Assembly (NCBI GenBank): GCA_036867785.1
Contig: CP145415.1
Span: 1,240,001 to 1,291,307, forward strand
DNA from: Plasmodiophora brassicae
Taxonomy: Eukaryota
Length of the DNA: 51,307 bases
Direction: 5' to 3'
Both the position numbers and the translations under genes were made by a program. Position 1 is the first letter of the stretch; every line of letters begins with the position of its first letter. Positions 4,130 through 26,709 of this stretch are shown one piece after another. The notes below the pieces were generated by a model, which made no database searches, was not told where the DNA came from, and saw nothing but the letters and a program-made list of their open reading frames with translations.

Positions 4130-4752
4130 GCTAGCGTCCACTTCGTATCGTTCCAGAACGGGCTGTTGCCGTTTATGCACGCGTTCAGCGTCAAGCATGG
4201 ATTTGTTATCGCACGCAAAGCACAACACGAATGATTCGGCGAAGGCGGTGCAACATTTCGGAGAGGAAAAGGTCGTTCAGAGGGGTTATTATTTCTCCTG
4301 CAGCTCTAGGCTCTCATATTGGAGGCTGTCCGTTTCATGTCGACTTCACATACGTCTTCACAGACCGGCGATACGTCGTAGAGAAGGACAACACGGTTCC
4401 GCACAGAAACGCTCTTCAACATCTCTTGTTGTTGTCGGAATTTTATTCAAGCAGAAGGACGCTGAACGGACTACCGAGGAACGGGAAGCCATTCTGGAAT
4501 TGGCTCCTTTTGTTAGCATTGGCACCTCCCGTGTGCAACGTCGACGCTGGCCGATGATTGGTTTCGACCGCAAACTGCTATACCGCTTGAAAGCAAAGCG
4601 TCGTGAGATTGCATTTGCCTCCGACCGAGACGCCATCAACCGCTTCATGGAGGAAGGCCAGAAGATTCGGGATGCCGGTGGAGTGTTCGATATTCGCTTT
4701 GACGATTGCCTACGTATTGAGGAAGTTCTCGTCCAGAACCCATCAGTGAAAG
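4130..4752 (+). mobile_element. Degenerate Mutator-like (MULE/FAR1) transposase remnant
   Basis: Frameshifted pieces appear in FAR1/MULE order: HFVSFQNGLLPFMHAFSVKHGFVIARK, YYFSCSSR, GCPFHVDFTY..RYVV, then GGVFDIRFDDCLRIEEVLVQNP, which resembles the segment preceding the MULE catalytic core. Family assignment is by motif recall. Confidence 0.55.
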
Positions 4753-4888
4753 TATCGAACACTCCACCGGCATCCCGAATCTTCTGGTCTTCCTCCATGA
4801 AGCGGTTGATGGCGTCTCGATCGGAGGCAAATGCAATCTCACGACGCTTTGCTTTCAAGCGGTATAGCAGTCTGCGGTTGAACCCGAT
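4557..4888. repeat. Long inverted repeat (hairpin): 136-bp arms, 60-bp loop
   Basis: 4557-4692 is the reverse complement of 4753-4888 with 6 mismatches. The same peptide LLYRLKAKRREIAFASDRDAINRFMEE appears in both + and - ORFs. Confidence 0.95.
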
Positions 4889-4914
4889 AGCACAGAGTGT
4901 CGCCTCATCCAGAG

Positions 4915-7083
4915 ATGGAGTACGACGACCGTATATTGGCCACGTTAGCACATGCGCGGACGCCGTGGTGGGTGCACCCACGGAGTTGTTCGGCGGCAAT
5001 GGACACGAAAGCCAGATCTCGCAGCGACGGCCACAGGTCCAGGTCACGCTCGCGGTCCCCGGGTAGGAGGCCGACGTTGGCACACTGTCATTCAACTGCA
5101 CGTGTATCGATTGCTGACACTGCAGTTGCAGACCACAAGCGCCATCGACGAAACCGGGAGCCATCCCTCGAACGGGACGCGCGACGCAAGGCCAAGAAGG
5201 AGGCAAGACGTCATAGCAAACAGTCTGGCGCCTTTGGGTATACCGATGACGCCAACCCGTTCGGCGATCCATCATTGTCGAAAGTATTCGTCTGGAAGAA
5301 GAAGCACAAGGCCGAATTGGATGCCGGTTAGCCTGCGCTTTGGCGATCGTAATGCCCACTCATTCTTCGCGTTACGGCTATGCACAGGAACGCCCGTATC
5401 GAAGATTGAAAAGAAGGTTAAACGTAGGCAGCAGGAGTTGCGGGATGAAATCGAGCGTATCAAGCAACGCAAAGAGGAGCGCGAGATCGAGAAAGAGCAG
5501 ATGGAGGAGATGAAAATGCAGATCGCACGCGAAATGGAACGCGATGCGAACGCCGACTGGGATCGGAAAGAAGAAGAATTTCTTAGGGAACAGGTATGGA
5601 GTTTGGGGTCATCGATTGATAATGTACCTGACACTCTACGTGCGTCATCAGCAACGAATTGTCGTCGCGCGTCGCATTCGGGAACAGCGGCAGAAACCTT
5701 CGGACCTGCTGGCACAGAATTTGTTTGTTCTGGAGTTGGATGGGAGGAAACCTACGACACCTGGACATGGCCAGGACGTCGTTGATCACGATACGTTCGA
5801 CCTTATAGATCCGATCGCTGTCTTTCGCGACCTAGGGCAGCAAGAATTGCTGGAGCTCTTAAAGGATGTTCAGGACCAGATTGAGAACGGGGAACATGTC
5901 GAGTATTGGTCAGCACTTAGCGTTATCTGCGAGGACGCCCTCGTGGCGAGTGCCGACTCGAACCTGATCGACCCCGTTCGGTCTGATCTCGAAAAGATAT
6001 TCCATGTAAGGGACACAGTGTAGAAGAACCATCGGCCGTATGCCTGACGCACGACACAGGAGAAGAGCGTTCAGGACCTGCGCAACCTGAAGGACAAGAC
6101 CACGGCCAAAGTTGCTGGGCTAGACGCCGACGATTCGGTAGCTGTCGATGTCGATTATTGGCAGTCTCTGCTGCCTTTAATGGACCTTGCCATTGCTAAA
6201 GCCTATCTGCGCGAATTCTACAATAACTTGGTCCAGATGCGTCTCCAGCAGTTGGCTCAGGATGAGATGCAACTTGCAGGTTTGTCCGATTATCTGACTG
6301 TCAGCCATCCCAAGCGATAACCCGTCCGGTTCCGTGCAGGTTGCGAGTCGCATGCTGTCAACAGTGGTTTGCGGAGCCCAGTTCAGTTCGTCGACGAGGA
6401 GCTGTCGCGTACTGCCATTGCTCCTGCAGATGACATGGCATCGTTACGTGAGCAACGCGCTTCTATTGTCGCCGAGGAATTTGCCAAGTTCAGTGAGAGC
6501 CGGGGCCGACTCGTTCCTCATCAAAAGAAACTCGAGGTACGTTTGCTCAGTGATCCCCAATGCAGAACGTCCCGGCGTCTAACTCCGCGTGACGAAGGTG
6601 TCTGCTGCTGCATTCGATGCGAACAACCTGATGAATACGATGACCGAGGACGAGCAACAGTTCTCGGATGTTGTCCAGTTGGCAAGTGACGGGACTGTTC
6701 CTTCGTGGGCTGACAAGTACAGGCCTCGCAAGCCGAAGTTCTTCAACTGTGTCAAAGCCGGGTACGAGTGGTCGAAGTACAATCAGACGCACTATGATCG
6801 GGAAAATCCGCCGCCCAAAGTCGTTCAAGGCTACAAGTTCAACATATTCTATCCGGACCTGCTTGACCCGTCAGTCGCTCCAACGTTCACGAAGTTGAAG
6901 ATACCAGACGATCCAGACTTTTGCATTCTACGATTCTCGGCCGGACCACCGTACGAGGACATTGCCTTCAAGATCGTCAACAAGCCGTGGGAGAGCTCGC
7001 AAAGGCATGGGTTCCGAAGCAAGTTCGAGAGAGGCGTCCTCTGCCTTTACTTCAACTTCAGGCGCATTCGATACCGAAGATAA
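4915..7083 (+). CDS. cactin: Cactin (spliceosome-associated), multi-exon
   Basis: RS-rich N-terminus, GYTDDANPFGDPSLSKVFVWKKK, a coiled coil, and the C-terminal domain KYRPRKPKFFN..GYEWSKYNQTHYD..PPPKVVQGYKFNIFYPDL..AGPPYEDIAFKIV..LYFNFRRIRYRR. Confidence 0.95.
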
Positions 7084-7148
7084 ACCAATCGGTATCTTAC
7101 TTGACCCCGAAACTGTTCCATACCTCCATTCGACAAGGTGTAAGGCCT

Positions 7149-24852: not shown

Positions 24853-24908
24853 GTGATACGGAACTGCGACAGCCTCAATATTGAGGCGCTGTCGCAGTTC
24901 CGTATCAC
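24853..24908. repeat. 56-bp near-perfect palindrome at the gene/rDNA boundary
   Basis: GTGATACGGAACTGCGACAGC (24853-24873) pairs with 24888-24908. The inner GCCTCAATATTGAGGC is itself palindromic. Confidence 0.9.
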
Positions 24909-24979
24909 GGCGAGTTGAGCGCTGGCGCGGCTGGGCATCATGGTTCGTTTAGGCGCCTTCGCAAATGCCTTTGACAGTT

Positions 24980-26032
24980 CATAAGACGCCGCCGCGGTTC
25001 CGTTTCGTGATGAGTAGCGCACAGCCGCGGTTCCATTGCGTGGCCTGGTAGACGACGTCACGGTTCCGTTGCATGGGTCGTTAGGCACCGCTGCGCTTCC
25101 CATTTCATTAGGCGCGCAGTCGCGGCTCAGTACACAGTTCGTTAGGCGCTATGGCTGTTCCATTTTATGGTCTGGTAGGAGCCATCGAGGTCCCATTTCG
25201 TGGTCTGGTAGGCACCGCCGCGGTTCCGTTTCAGTGTCAGGTAGACGCCGTCGCGGTTCCGTTTCCTGGTCCGGTAGACGCCGTCGAGGTTCCGTTTAGT
25301 GGTTTGGCAGGCACCGTCGCGGTTCCGTTTCAGTGTCAGGTAGACGCCGTCGTGGTTCCGTTCCGTGGTTTGGTAGGCACCGTCACGGTTCCGTTTCAGT
25401 GTCAGGTAGACGCCGTCGCGGTTCCGTTTTATGGTCTAGAAGACGCCGTCGCGGTTCCGTTTCTGTGTCAGGTAGACGCCGTCGCGGTTCCGTTTCGTGG
25501 TTCGGTAGACGTCGACGCGGTTCCGTCGCGACCGTTTGACGCCGTCGCGGTTCCGTTTCAGTGTCAGGTAGACGCCGTCGCGGTTCCGTTTCGTGGTCCG
25601 GTAGACGCCGTCGCGGTTCCGTCGCGACCGTTTGACGCCGTCGCGGTTCCGTCAGCAAAGGAATCGCCGGTGCGTTGGACGGAACCGCGACGGCTTCTTG
25701 CCGGTTCCATCGCAGGAGGACGCCGTTGCGGTTCCGTCTGGAAGAAGTTTGCCGGGTTTTGGCCCCCGGCTCCCAGGTTACGTACAGGGGGGGGGGGTCC
25801 ATCCCGCTTTTCGCCTTCTTTTCCCCATTTGGAGTATTTCGTGCGAAATTCCAAATATAGTGGGGGCTCCCGGTAGACGCCGTCGCGGTTCCGTTCTGTT
25901 TGGTAGACGCCGCGGCGGTTCCGTTCTGTTGGGTAGACGCCGCCGCGGTTCCGTTTCATGGTCTGGAGACGCCGTCGCGGTTCCGTTTCATGGTCTGGAG
26001 ACGCCGTCGCGGTTCCGTTTCATGGTCTGGAG
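24980..26032 (+). repeat. Degenerate proximal rDNA IGS subrepeats (core GCCGTCGCGGTTCCGT, ~27-33 bp units) plus a diverged copy of the promoter-like block
   Basis: Same core and linkers as 39200-40200. Block ~25620-25871 is a diverged copy of ~27075-27323. Confidence 0.85.
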
Positions 26033-26709
26033 TGTGCCGGCTCCAAGCTATAAGACAAGAATAGCTGTGATCCGGCTAGGCCGCCCTAAGAATGACGGAC
26101 ATGCACGGAGTGCGCACGGAGTCCGCACGGCGTCCGTGGGAGCTGCAGGTCGGGGACACAGACGATTATACTACACGGCTGATATACCATCACCGTTGGG
26201 ACGTCACAGAGATCTCTTGAACATCCTTTCGGGGAAGGTTTCAAAGAAGGACGCGATGGTGGCCACCGCGCAGGAGATGCTGCTGGAAGATGACGTCGAT
26301 GATCGACAACAAGGACAGAGCGTGCAAGGCTCAACGATCGTCCTGCAGATGAACAAGGCGCCGACCTTGAAGAGCATGGACCGCAAGGCCGTCACGACGT
26401 TCATGGCCGAGCTGAAGACGTATCGGAATCACTTCCGGGACGATCCGAATGCCAAGGGCCAGATCCCACGGTCAGTGAGGAGTATGATCGACCCCGGTCT
26501 GCTCAGGGCGATCTGCAAGTGGGAACTCGGCACGGACCGTGGGATCTGGCCCTTGGCATTCGGATCGTCCCGGAAGTGATTCCGATACGTCTTCAGCTCG
26601 GCCATGAACGTCGTGACGGCCTTGCGGTCCATGCTCTTCAAGGTCGGCGCCTTGTTCATCTGCAGGACGATCGTTGAGCCTTGCACGCTCTGTCCTTGTT
26701 GTCGATCAT
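26033..26709 (+). mobile_element. Truncated LTR-retrotransposon-like insertion (candidate short LTR plus gag fragment) ending in a fold-back, inside the IGS
   Basis: 677 bp absent from the second IGS. Starts TGTGCCGG, with a candidate LTR end ACGTCACA at 26208. The ORF from ATG 26256 (APTLKSMDRKAVTTFMAELKTYR..PRSVRSMIDPGLLRAICKWELG) resembles protist Ty3/gypsy gag N-termini. No canonical TGG PBS is seen. Confidence 0.55.
26299..26709. repeat. Perfect long inverted repeat: 175-bp arms, 61-bp loop
   Basis: 26299-26473 is the exact reverse complement of 26535-26709. Confidence 0.97.

What the first reader, a model, noticed from the sequence alone, without database searches (positions are those of the whole stretch)
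4557..26709. Shared architecture suggests a recurrent transposon-to-hairpin conversion system
Two unrelated TE classes (DNA transposon and LTR retroelement) 22 kb apart show the same geometry: a truncated coding fragment, a 60-61 bp loop, then a 136-175 bp inverted copy. Each lies next to a probable active promoter. Near-identical loop sizes in independent events hint at a common fold-back mechanism and/or selection for Dicer substrates. This could be a genome-encoded TE memory in a plasmodiophorid. With n=2, coincidence is possible.
Basis: inference. Interest (0 to 1): 0.8.

Follow-up and report, generated by a model that had tools for sequence, protein, structure and literature searches.

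The report
Two transposon fragments folded into hairpins
Two broken jumping-gene copies in the clubroot parasite's genome each carry a short backwards copy of themselves, most likely scars of DNA-break repair; one coincides with a published small-silencing-RNA locus, so such accidents may feed the parasite's RNA silencing without any dedicated hairpin-making system.

Summary
Both inverted repeats are real. IR1 has arms 4557-4692/4753-4888 (136 nt, 6 mismatches, 60-nt spacer). IR2 has perfect arms 26299-26473/26535-26709 (175 nt, 61-nt spacer); the repeat finder extends it to 185 nt with 41 nt between. IR1's junctions stand unchanged in contigs of three independent DNA studies.

IR1 is the 5' part of a decayed Mutator-like transposase gene. 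IR2 is the start of a Gag gene whose relatives are fused to Ty3/gypsy pol domains. In both, homology to the parent element stops at the spacer's end, where the inverted copy begins. IR2 has a 10-nt imperfect inverted microhomology with a 41-nt loop, as in yeast fold-back repair of breaks. IR1 has none.

By coordinates, IR1 matches PHAS21-418/-419, a phased 21-nt siRNA pair in the 2026 P. brassicae RNAi paper. IR2 is not listed there. That paper finds no RdRP and leaves the siRNA precursors unexplained.

Verdict: two independent fold-back repair scars, at least one used as a hairpin siRNA source. A dedicated conversion system is not supported, and the genome-wide loop test could not be run. The scan reported similar fold-backs elsewhere in this genome (e1-7153303, e1-7153607).

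The parts
3834..4752 (+). Decayed 5' part of a Mutator-like (MULE/SWIM-type) DNA transposon. It has a multi-copy terminus at 3834 to about 3943, then a leader, then transposase codons from about 4233 to 4752 (aa 3-172 of the P. brassicae paralogue P0003, with at least one frameshift).
   Evidence: P0003 (PBTT_08695, 738 aa) E 2.8e-51, 84% identity; 120/178 identities to aa 3-172. P0003 hits the MULE and ZSWIM RNaseH-like models just below Pfam cut-offs; depth is about 13-fold at 3822-3882 in X2, with contig ends at 3834-3869. A 2913-nt paralogue contig fits 3834-4006 and 4139-4752, then runs on unlike behind 4752.
4557..4692 (+). IR1 left arm (original transposase sequence, aa 108-153 of the paralogue)
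4693..4752 (+). IR1 spacer, 60 nt. It is still parental transposase sequence (to aa 172). The break point lies at 4752/4753.
   Evidence: homology runs to ...NPSVK; paralogue contigs of X5 and X15 leave the window sequence exactly behind 4752.
4753..4888 (-). IR1 right arm: inverted copy of 4557-4692 (6 mismatches, 4 of them in the outermost 17 nt). It is joined at 4888/4889 to non-TE DNA about 110 nt upstream of the cactin start codon.
   Evidence: X2 records 20-22, X10 records 7-8 and X5 records 29-30 bridge the junctions with 0 differences.
4999..7083 (+). Neighbouring expressed cactin gene (context, a possible source of promoter activity), with introns 5062-5130 and 5326-5386
   Evidence: Cactin_mid 1.3e-14 and CactinC_cactus 1.3e-57. 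RNA-guess run contig at depth 948 with GT..AG joints.
26032..26534 (+). 5' fragment of a Ty3/gypsy-type LTR retroelement. It has 224 nt of leader, then Gag codons 1-93 (ATG at 26256). It lies between rDNA-spacer-type 32/33-bp repeats.
   Evidence: P0004 (PBTT_07451) 2.0e-39, 83% identity; homology to ...WELG(T/K)D; relatives of the domain open a 1581-aa ORF with RVT_1, RT_RNaseH, Integrase_H2C2 and Chromo (L001), or precede a pol ORF (L008); the non-repeat DNA begins at about 26032.
26299..26473 (+). IR2 left arm (perfect 175 nt)
26474..26534 (+). IR2 spacer, 61 nt of parental Gag sequence. Its two ends (26474-26483 and 26525-26534) are a 10-nt imperfect inverted microhomology (7 of 10 pair) around a 41-nt loop.
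26535..26709 (-). IR2 right arm: inverted copy of 26299-26473 with 0 mismatches. It is joined at 26709/26710 directly to spacer repeats that align with the internal rDNA unit.
25044..26031 (.). Degenerate partial copy of the rDNA intergenic-spacer repeats on the centromere side of IR2 (context)
   Evidence: (families D1, D3, D5, D6, D18)
26710..27307 (.). Canonical spacer repeats of the first rDNA unit, on the telomere side of IR2 (context)
   Evidence: (D4; D6 98% to 40023-40322)

Best explanation
These are two independent fold-back (inverted duplication plus deletion) scars of DNA-break repair inside transposon copies.

Proposed steps, all inferred from the structure:
1. A 3' single-stranded end arose inside the element, behind 4752 in the Mutator-like element and behind 26534 in the gypsy-like Gag.
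2. That end snapped back about 60 nt upstream on its own strand.
3. It was extended for 136 or 175 nt.
4. The new strand was then joined to the other side of the break, and the rest of the element was lost.

For the DNA transposon the break could be the gap left by excision (interrupted gap repair). For the retroelement it could be a break in an integrated copy, or a captured cDNA in the break-prone rDNA spacer.

The result is a genomic hairpin made from the 5' part of the element. In an organism reported to lack RdRP, such hairpins are a ready source of double-stranded RNA. IR1 appears to be used this way. It coincides with the phased 21-nt siRNA loci PHAS21-418/-419, presumably cut by the Drosha-like PbDRL, and its siRNAs could act in trans on the roughly 88-90% identical transcribed paralogue.

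Shown here: the structures, the TE origins, the break points, the presence of IR1 in three data sets, and the coordinate match to the sRNA loci.

Inferred: the repair pathway, transcription of the whole hairpin, and any silencing effect. IR2 may be a very young, so far unused scar.
For: 1. In both repeats the parental homology runs through the spacer and ends where the inverted copy starts.
   - IR1: P0003 aligns to aa 172 = nt 4751. Paralogue contigs of two runs diverge exactly behind 4752, and their continuation reads as the next residues of P0003.
   - IR2: P0004 aligns through ...WELG(K/T)D = nt 26537.
2. IR2 shows a 10-nt imperfect inverted microhomology (7 of 10) around a 41-nt loop, next to perfect 175-nt arms. 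The yeast study PMC11724301 (passages read) describes fold-back at a '10-bp imperfect inverted microhomology with a 41-nt spacer'. [quoted passage not shown]
3. The rest of each element is gone. There is no multi-copy terminus right of 4889. IR2's right arm abuts spacer repeats that align with the internal rDNA unit.
4. IR1 stands unchanged in DNA contigs of three studies dated 2018, 2022 and 2024.
5. sRNA link. PHAS21-418 (Ctg_8:1244067-1244208) and PHAS21-419 (1244221-1244398), both listed with P = 0, together span 332 nt, which is IR1's length.
   - Setting 1244067 = 4557 puts the 37-nt rDNA-type locus Repeat48 (1270836) 11 nt inside the SSU rRNA (31315).
   - The same 37-nt locus recurs on Ctg_1 at 13,108- and 13,111-nt spacing, which is the rDNA unit length found here.
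6. The paper reports no RdRP and no Dicer, and states that how siRNA precursors arise 'remains unclear'.
7. By my own by-eye count over all 435 rows of Table S6, about 41 neighbouring PHAS pairs lie 150 nt or less apart, against roughly 1 expected from their density. That is what hairpin arms would give.
Against: - IR1 has no usable microhomology at the fold-back junction (0-1 nt). It therefore does not fit the microhomology-primed model as it stands.
- IR2's copy (175 nt) is longer than the range seen in yeast.
- No pre-event allele was seen, so the distal junctions and the order of events are inferred.
- The link of IR1 to PHAS21-418/-419 rests on coordinates, not on sRNA sequences. siRNAs mapped there could partly come from paralogues.
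- IR2 would lie at Ctg_8:1265809-1266219, and no Table S6-S8 locus is listed there.
- Exact RNA contigs over IR1 were seen only at low depth, only for 4251-4676, and in a run whose RNA nature is a guess.
- Spacers of 60 and 61 nt in two independent events are an unexplained coincidence if spacer lengths are broad.
Confidence: 0.6

Rival explanations
1. One reading: a recurrent, mechanistically fixed transposon-to-hairpin conversion system. A polymerase or reverse-transcriptase snap-back with a ~60-nt footprint would act preferentially on the 5' parts of active elements, or there would be selection for that loop size. The result would be a genome-encoded TE memory.
For: - Spacers of 60 and 61 nt occur in two unrelated element classes.
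- Both fragments are 5' parts in sense orientation on the same strand.
- One is a listed siRNA source.
- The species lacks RdRP, so hairpins would be valuable.
- Earlier scan notes report further fold-backs in this genome, one built from a transposon piece (unchecked by me).
- Closely paired PHAS loci are about 40-fold over-represented.
Against: - n=2, and the similarity was chosen after the fact.
- The junction types differ: 10-nt microhomology against none.
- Arm lengths differ (136 against 175 nt).
- Ordinary break repair gives the same geometry in yeast.
- IR2 is not a listed sRNA locus.
- The gaps between paired PHAS loci range from 2 to 137 nt with no visible mode. For IR1 the gap is 12 nt although the loop is 60 nt, so those gaps say nothing about loops.
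- No candidate enzyme was identified.
Confidence: 0.07
2. Replication-fork template switching instead of break repair. The nascent strand jumped to the complementary strand about 60 nt back, copied 136-175 nt, then switched again to a distant template (FoSTeS/MMBIR-type, or a large version of the template-switch mutations that create miRNA hairpins).
For: - Template switching makes perfect inverted repeats with a loop in one event and has seeded miRNA genes (PMC10710096, passages read).
- A junction with 0-3 nt microhomology is compatible with it.
- The four mismatches clustered in the outermost 17 nt of IR1 could mark an error-prone or second switch.
Against: - The events described in that paper are 28-83 bases long and return to the original template. 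Here the parental sequence downstream is lost, not resumed.
- The end products of this model and of break repair are largely indistinguishable from sequence alone.
Confidence: 0.2
3. For IR2 only: self-priming by the element's own reverse transcriptase on an incomplete plus-strand cDNA. The hairpin cDNA fragment was then captured at a break in the rDNA spacer.
For: - The source is a retroelement Gag start with its leader.
- The fragment lies as an insertion between spacer repeats that are contiguous in the internal unit.
- Capture of transposon cDNA at breaks, and inversions formed within extrachromosomal single-stranded DNA, are described in PMC11724301.
- Zero arm divergence fits a recent event.
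Against: - No LTR was recognised in the 224 nt upstream of the ATG (not specifically tested).
- It cannot explain IR1, a DNA transposon with the same geometry. It therefore needs two mechanisms where one suffices.
Confidence: 0.1
4. Assembly artefact (chimeric fold-back reads), at least for IR2 beside the repetitive rDNA.
For: IR2's arms are 100% identical and sit in tandem repeats next to an rDNA array. No independent reads were laid on it.
Against: - IR1 is bridged without differences by short-read contigs of three studies.
- IR2's spacer is genuine Gag coding sequence, homologous to P0004 up to the junction. It is not an adapter or a zero-loop palindrome.
Confidence: 0.03

Closest known systems
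Maize Mu killer (Muk)
   Same: Muk is a natural partial inverted duplication of the 5' part of a Mutator-family transposase gene, including the terminal repeat region. It is thought to be transcribed into a hairpin that yields siRNAs against the active element (abstract of PMC3440606 seen in the listing). IR1 is likewise the 5' part of a Mutator-like transposase gene with its terminus and an inverted copy.
   Different: Muk's hairpin is about 4 kb, while IR1's stem is 136 bp. Muk acts through plant Dicer-like/RdRP/RdDM pathways, while P. brassicae is reported to have neither Dicer nor RdRP. Trans-silencing is shown for Muk and untested here.
Local fold-back inverted insertions at double-strand breaks in yeast (PMC11724301)
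   Same: A 3' end folds back on an imperfect 10-nt inverted microhomology with a 41-nt loop. It is extended, unwound and joined to the other end, and the products are longer inverted repeats next to the break. IR2 has a 10-nt imperfect microhomology and a 41-nt loop.
   Different: Most yeast copies are under 14 bp and reach at most about 150 bp, while here they are 136 and 175 nt. IR1 lacks the microhomology. Here the event also deleted the rest of a transposon. The enzymes are unknown in this organism.
PHAS21 and miRNA loci of P. brassicae isolate PbJS (PMC13547706, Tables S6 and S8)
   Same: By coordinates, IR1 equals the pair PHAS21-418/-419. Many listed loci come as close pairs or long 'precursors', as hairpins would. 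Fig. 2G of the paper shows a 'palindromic genomic region' giving miRNAs (legend read).
   Different: In the parts I read or searched (sections 2.2 and 3; word searches of the main text and of the docx supplement), the paper does not describe these loci as fold-back duplications of transposon fragments. It leaves the origin of siRNA precursors open. IR2 is not listed.
Template-switch mutations that create miRNA hairpins (PMC10710096)
   Same: A perfect stem-loop is created in one step from pre-existing sequence, and transcription is borrowed from existing promoters.
   Different: Those events are tens of bases long and return to the original template. Here the arms are 136-175 nt and the downstream parental sequence is lost.
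Drosophila hairpin-RNA (hpRNA) endo-siRNA loci (recalled, no call)
   Same: Drosophila is also an RdRP-less organism in which genome-encoded inverted duplications of target sequences supply dsRNA for siRNAs.
   Different: Drosophila hpRNAs mostly derive from protein-coding target genes and are cut by Dicer-2. Here the sources are transposons and the nuclease is reported to be Drosha-like.
Ac/Ds inverted duplications from alternative transposition (bioRxiv 10.1101/2020.01.07.897926; only the start of the abstract seen)
   Same: Rearrangements of a DNA transposon produce inverted duplications that start siRNA silencing of the family.
   Different: That process is transposase-driven and involves whole element ends. 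Nothing here shows transposase involvement, and IR2 is a retroelement.

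Membership tests
Transposon-derived hairpin siRNA locus (Mu killer type) | Inverted duplication of part of a transposon gene | tested here: met
   IR1. IR2.
Transposon-derived hairpin siRNA locus (Mu killer type) | Small RNAs arise from the arms | tested here: inconclusive
   IR1 coincides by coordinates with PHAS21-418/-419 (142 + 178 nt, 332 nt overall, P = 0), but no sRNA sequence was compared. At IR2's expected place no locus is listed in Tables S6-S8. The 78,890 siRNAs are not listed singly.
Transposon-derived hairpin siRNA locus (Mu killer type) | Both arms transcribed on one RNA | tested here: inconclusive
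   exact contigs 4251-4416 and 4419-4676 at depth 5-6 in a run whose RNA nature is a guess. None bridges the loop.
Transposon-derived hairpin siRNA locus (Mu killer type) | Silences the active element in trans | not testable with these tools
   A paralogue contig (2913 nt) is present in the RNA-guess run and differs from the arm at 13 or more listed positions (table truncated). No functional data.
Mutator-like (MULE) DNA transposon, source of IR1 | MULE/RNaseH-like transposase domain | tested here: inconclusive
   The full-length paralogue P0003 hits ZSWIM1-3_RNaseH-like (24.3 bits, cut-off 27.2) and MULE (23.5 bits, cut-off 27.6). Both are just below the curated cut-offs. A CxC...CxH SWIM-like motif can be read in P0003.
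Mutator-like (MULE) DNA transposon, source of IR1 | Terminal inverted repeats shared by many copies | tested here: inconclusive
   A multi-copy terminus lies at 3834 to about 3943 (about 13-fold depth at 3822-3882 in X2, contig ends at 3834-3869). The 3' terminus is deleted here, so the inverted pairing of the ends cannot be seen.
Ty3/gypsy LTR retrotransposon Gag, source of IR2 | The domain is part of, or directly precedes, a pol with RT, RNase H and integrase | tested here: met
   Relatives: L001 has one 1581-aa ORF that starts with the domain (100% to P0012), followed by RVT_1, RT_RNaseH, Integrase_H2C2 and Chromo. L008 has a gag-like ORF followed by a pol ORF. The link to the window fragment is P0005 at E 1.6e-6, 42% identity.
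Ty3/gypsy LTR retrotransposon Gag, source of IR2 | Capsid-like fold | tested here: inconclusive
   The model of P0011 has mean pLDDT 62. Foldseek found nothing at E <= 0.001. VIA-align top rows include Copia capsid Z 5.3 and 5.0, Ty1 Gag CA-CTD 4.8, PEG10 CA 4.7 and dArc 4.2, all below the level the tool calls meaningful for helical proteins.
Ty3/gypsy LTR retrotransposon Gag, source of IR2 | Flanking LTRs | not tested
   Only 224 nt lie upstream of the ATG in the window. The ends of L001/L008 were not examined.
Microhomology-primed local fold-back insertion at a DSB (PMC11724301) | Short inverted microhomology next to the break, spacer of tens of nt | tested here: inconclusive
   IR2 meets it (10 nt, 7 of 10 paired, 41-nt loop). 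IR1 does not (0-1 nt).
Microhomology-primed local fold-back insertion at a DSB (PMC11724301) | The inverted copy starts exactly where the parental sequence ends | tested here: met
Microhomology-primed local fold-back insertion at a DSB (PMC11724301) | The other end is captured with 0-5 bp microhomology | not testable with these tools
   No pre-event allele is available.
Simple template-switch mutation (PMC10710096) | Replication returns to the original template just beyond the switch | tested here: not met
   The parental sequence downstream of the break is absent at both loci.
Plant-type phasiRNA locus | RdRP-made dsRNA after miRNA-triggered cleavage | not testable with these tools
   The paper reports no RdRP homologue (its claim, not rechecked). 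The phasing would then come from stepwise cutting of a hairpin.

The most novel reading that the evidence does not exclude
P. brassicae has neither RdRP nor Dicer. It may obtain most of its siRNA precursors from fold-back duplications of the 5' parts of transposons, made by one snap-back process with a roughly 60-nt reach. Each active element family would then sooner or later leave a heritable hairpin 'memory' that silences it, a hairpin-based counterpart of piRNA clusters. The many closely paired PHAS loci would be its products.
Probability: 0.1. Interest if true: 0.8.

Novelty: new member of a known kind. Interest (0 to 1): 0.5.

Why it matters
The 2026 study of RNAi in the clubroot pathogen found abundant phased 21-nt siRNAs but no RdRP. 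It states that the origin of their double-stranded precursors is unclear.

This window gives a concrete, checkable answer for one locus. The two halves of PHAS21-418/-419 are the two arms of a 136-bp hairpin made by a fold-back of a Mutator-like transposase fragment.

If the other closely paired loci are also inverted repeats, the precursor question is largely solved. I counted about 41 such pairs among the 435 loci in Table S6. It would also mean that transposon control in a rhizarian rests on accidental repair scars that were kept.

The finding further documents, at base-pair resolution, two natural fold-back repair products in a protist that match a mechanism so far dissected in yeast. The specific claim of a dedicated conversion system is not needed to explain the data.

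Tried and rejected
- **Whole genome.** None is held, so the proposed genome-wide inverted-repeat and loop-length scan was not possible.
- **Earlier notes.** Look-ups near the place, by IR2 sequence and among relatives gave nothing.
- **Pfam on the window fragments.** 0 families for 3 of 3 proteins.
- **Word-index searches for IR2.**
  - Fragment alone among longer proteins: 0 of 95 candidates.
  - Alignment A2 among proteins of 596-2000 aa: 0 of 8000 candidates scored.
  - The gag-pol link came only from metagenome loci.
- **Structure route for IR2's family.**
  - PDB by sequence with A2: 0 matches.
  - Foldseek against PDB: 0 at E <= 0.001.
  - ESM Atlas: named Gag-type clusters score only 0.85-0.89, so they are leads.
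The closer alignment A4 worked.
- **Exact 40-nt scan for IR2's junction in metagenome contigs:** 0 matches.
- **Sequencing runs.** No RNA holder is listed on record for the IR1 stretch; rows X15-X20 are only guessed to be RNA. In the RNA-guess run X15 nothing was laid on 4798-4980, which proves nothing.
- **Loose end before 5009.** A loose end of an X15 contig before 5009 suggested an upstream exon. A 20-nt motif from it is not in the window, so that was left open.
- **My BLAST self-scan for further local inverted repeats.**
  - It listed 26 short (17-21 nt) spacer-repeat matches only.
  - It did not list the two long repeats themselves, probably because each is reported as one self-overlapping alignment that my filter dropped.
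  - It therefore speaks only to the absence of other medium-sized ones.
- **Gaps between paired PHAS loci** were considered as a proxy for loop length and rejected. For IR1 the gap is 12 nt although the loop is 60 nt.
- **P-nucleotide-type hairpin opening after transposase cleavage** was considered and rejected. It gives zero-loop palindromes of a few bases (recalled knowledge).

Full report
**What the window is.** The best protein hits are named Plasmodiophora brassicae by NCBI. From about 27.3 kb onward the window is an rDNA array of two 13.1-kb units, with group I introns in the SSU and LSU genes. The array ends in TTTTAGGG-type telomere repeats from 50992/50993, joined to an LSU gene cut off at the position that equals 37880 of the first unit. 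The finding therefore spans the last unique genes of a chromosome arm and the border of a terminal rDNA array. No whole genome is held.

**Observation.** The repeat finder reports exactly two long local inverted repeats.
- IR1 has arms 4557-4692 and 4753-4888 (136 nt) with 60 nt between. It has six mismatches, four of them in the outermost 17 nt.
- IR2 has perfect arms 26299-26473 and 26535-26709 (175 nt) with 61 nt between. The tool's 185-nt arms with 41 nt between add ten positions per arm, of which seven pair.
- As RNA both fold into near-perfect hairpins: -291.1 kcal/mol (z -36.7) and -420.9 kcal/mol (z -43.2). None of 100 shuffles did as well in either case.

Contigs from three DNA runs of three studies bridge all IR1 junctions with no differences (X2 records 20-22, X10 records 7-8, X5 records 29-30). 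IR1 is therefore real and shared by the sampled isolates. IR2 was not checked in independent data. Its spacer is genuine coding sequence, which argues against a read-chimera artefact.

**IR1's source.**
- The plus-strand reading through the left arm and spacer matches one protein among 410 candidates. This is P0003 (PBTT_08695, 738 aa), at E 2.8e-51 and 84% identity.
- Over the longer frame the match covers aa 3-172 of P0003 (120 of 178 identical) with a frameshifted stretch. The minus-strand copy matches only aa 108 to about 153.
- P0003 hits the MULE and ZSWIM RNaseH-like models just under Pfam's cut-offs and carries a SWIM-like CxC...CxH motif (read). Mutator is the commonest TIR class in the PbJS annotation, with 600 elements (Table S5).
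- Laying contigs at 80% likeness outlined the element.
  - A segment from 3834 to about 3943 has about 13-fold depth at its peak (3822-3882) in X2, with contig ends at 3834-3869. This is the shared element terminus.
  - A 2913-nt paralogue contig fits 3834-4006 and 4139-4752. It then leaves the window sequence exactly behind 4752, with letters that read as the next residues of P0003.
  - Nothing multi-copy lies right of 4889.
- So the locus is TE terminus, leader, transposase aa 1-172, then the inverted copy of aa 108-153, then non-TE DNA about 110 nt upstream of the start codon of an expressed cactin gene.
- The fold-back junction has 0-1 nt of microhomology.

**IR2's source.**
- The fragment has no Pfam hit and no long relative by word search.
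- The exhaustive HMMER search gave 8 proteins at E <= 0.001. The best is P0004 (PBTT_07451, P. brassicae) at 2.0e-39 and 83% identity. The rest are 36-42% identical proteins from metagenomes, and one cluster member is filed under sugar beet.
- The alignment shows homology through ...WELG(T/K)D, that is, up to the junction at 26534/26535.
- A scan of metagenome contigs confirmed 13 loci among 351 pattern matches.
  - In L001 the domain (100% identical to P0012) opens a 1581-aa ORF that continues with RVT_1, RT_RNaseH, Integrase_H2C2 and Chromo.
  - In L008 a gag-like ORF precedes a pol ORF.
- Fold evidence is weak but points the same way. Copia, Ty1, PEG10 and Arc capsid domains appear at Z 4.2-5.3. 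Foldseek found nothing. The Atlas gave only leads.
- The fragment (26032-26534) plus its inverted copy sits between 32/33-bp spacer repeats that are contiguous in the internal rDNA unit.

**How the hairpins arose.**
- In both loci the parental sequence continues through the spacer and stops where the inverted copy begins, and the remainder of the element is missing. That is the signature of a fold-back inverted duplication with deletion.
- The closest dissected case is yeast (PMC11724301, passages read).
  - After a break, the resected 3' end folds back on a 10-bp imperfect inverted microhomology with a 41-nt spacer.
  - Pol delta copies 2 to about 150 bp.
  - The strand unwinds and is joined to the other end by NHEJ with 0-5 bp microhomology.
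  - The inverted repeats lie within 63 bp of the break.
- IR2 reproduces this, with a 10-nt imperfect microhomology (7 of 10), a 41-nt loop and perfect arms beyond. IR1 does not show the microhomology. Its first step may have been different: end joining, a replication template switch, or snap-back during interrupted gap repair after excision. The last idea rests on recalled maize and P-element literature, not on a call.
- Snap-back is confined to the short single-stranded tail, so spacers of tens of nucleotides are expected. If spacers range uniformly over about 10-110 nt, two events would fall within 1 nt of each other about 3% of the time. That is my rough estimate, and the similarity was picked after the fact.

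**Are they used?**
- PMC13547706 (sections 2.2 and 3, word searches and Tables S1-S8 read) reports 21-nt, 5'-C, phased sRNAs, two AGOs and a Drosha-like PbDRL that cuts long dsRNA. It reports no Dicer and no RdRP, and says the origin of siRNA precursors 'remains unclear'.
- Table S6 lists PHAS21-418 (Ctg_8:1244067-1244208) and PHAS21-419 (1244221-1244398), both with P = 0. Together they span 332 nt, exactly IR1's length.
- Equating 1244067 with window 4557 gives three consistent results.
  - PHAS21-418 falls on 4557-4698 and PHAS21-419 on 4711-4888.
  - The 37-nt locus Repeat48 (1270836) falls 11 nt inside the SSU rRNA (31315). Its twins on Ctg_1 are spaced 13,108 and 13,111 nt apart, which is the rDNA unit length.
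- I take IR1 to be this locus pair with about 85% confidence. No sRNA sequence was compared.
- At IR2's expected position (1265809-1266219) Tables S6-S8 list nothing.
- In an RNA-guess run, exact contigs cover 4251-4676 at depth 5-6, against 276 and 948 for the neighbouring genes.

**Genome-wide hint.** I counted by eye over all 435 rows of Table S6. About 41 neighbouring pairs lie 150 nt or less apart, with gaps of 2-137 nt. About one such pair is expected from the density of loci in 25.2 Mb. This fits many 'PHAS' loci being the two arms of hairpins, but it could also reflect one locus being split by the caller. The gaps do not measure loops.

**Comparison and verdict.**
- The loci work like maize Mu killer (abstract seen) and like hairpin-RNA loci of RdRP-less animals (recalled). 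They were most likely made like the yeast fold-back insertions.
- They are not simple template-switch mutations, because the template is not resumed.
- In the held library, one search for Plasmodiophora together with inverted repeat, transposable element and siRNA returned a single paper, a review of plant epialleles going by its title and abstract, which I did not open. The RNAi paper's main text has 0 occurrences of 'inverted' and one of 'palindrom'.
- The scan itself has already reported transposon-derived fold-backs and their sRNAs elsewhere in this genome (e1-7153303, e1-7153607).
- I therefore rate this a new member of a known kind. The TE classes and RNAi relevance are supported. The dedicated 'conversion system' with a fixed loop is unsupported and still testable.

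Noticed in passing
window 50992-51307 (and 37858-37880): The window ends in TTTTAGGG-type telomere repeats joined directly to the second LSU rRNA gene. That gene is cut off at the position equal to 37880 of the first unit, about 1.2 kb before its 3' end. The rDNA array is therefore chromosome-terminal, and the telomere was added inside an rRNA gene.
   Followed up: partly
window 32574-32899, 33615-33931, 37058-37361, 38001-38428 (and copies in unit 2): Four group I introns per rDNA unit. The first lies inside the SSU match, the second directly behind its end, and two lie inside the LSU (Rfam).
   Followed up: no
window 25044-25855 versus 39147-40412: On the centromere side of IR2 lies a diverged partial copy of the spacer (33-bp repeats plus the D6/D18 segments at 60-83% identity). 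The border of the array thus carries an old, non-homogenised spacer remnant.
   Followed up: partly
window 3838-3897: The multi-copy transposon terminus is itself a roughly 60-nt imperfect palindrome (79% over 63 nt). It has about 13-fold depth in DNA contigs. It may be a subterminal hairpin motif of this Mutator-like family or a separate small fold-back element.
   Followed up: no
paper PMC13547706 Table S6 (PHAS21-129/130, -189/190, -254/255, -213/214): Four locus pairs on three contigs have identical or mirrored sizes (155 nt + 103-nt gap + 368 nt; 368 + 83 + 175) and identical P values. These look like copies of one repeated siRNA-producing element.
   Followed up: no
paper Table S7 (Repeat9-11 on Ctg_1; Repeat48 on Ctg_8): The same 37-nt 'hc-siRNA-like' locus recurs three times on Ctg_1 at 13.1-kb spacing and once on Ctg_8. 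That assembly therefore has rDNA arrays on at least two contigs. By my mapping the locus is a fragment near the 5' end of the 18S rRNA, so it is more likely an rRNA fragment than a silencing RNA.
   Followed up: partly
window 5009 (run X15): An RNA-guess contig of the cactin gene carries about 935 letters upstream of 5009 that do not lie in 3700-5500. A 20-nt motif from them is absent from the whole window. This may be a chimeric contig or an unexplained 5' part.
   Followed up: partly
P0014: One relative of the Gag domain is filed as a partial Beta vulgaris protein on an 826-nt contig. Sugar beet hosts the plasmodiophorid Polymyxa (recalled knowledge), so this may be parasite DNA in a plant assembly.
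   Followed up: no
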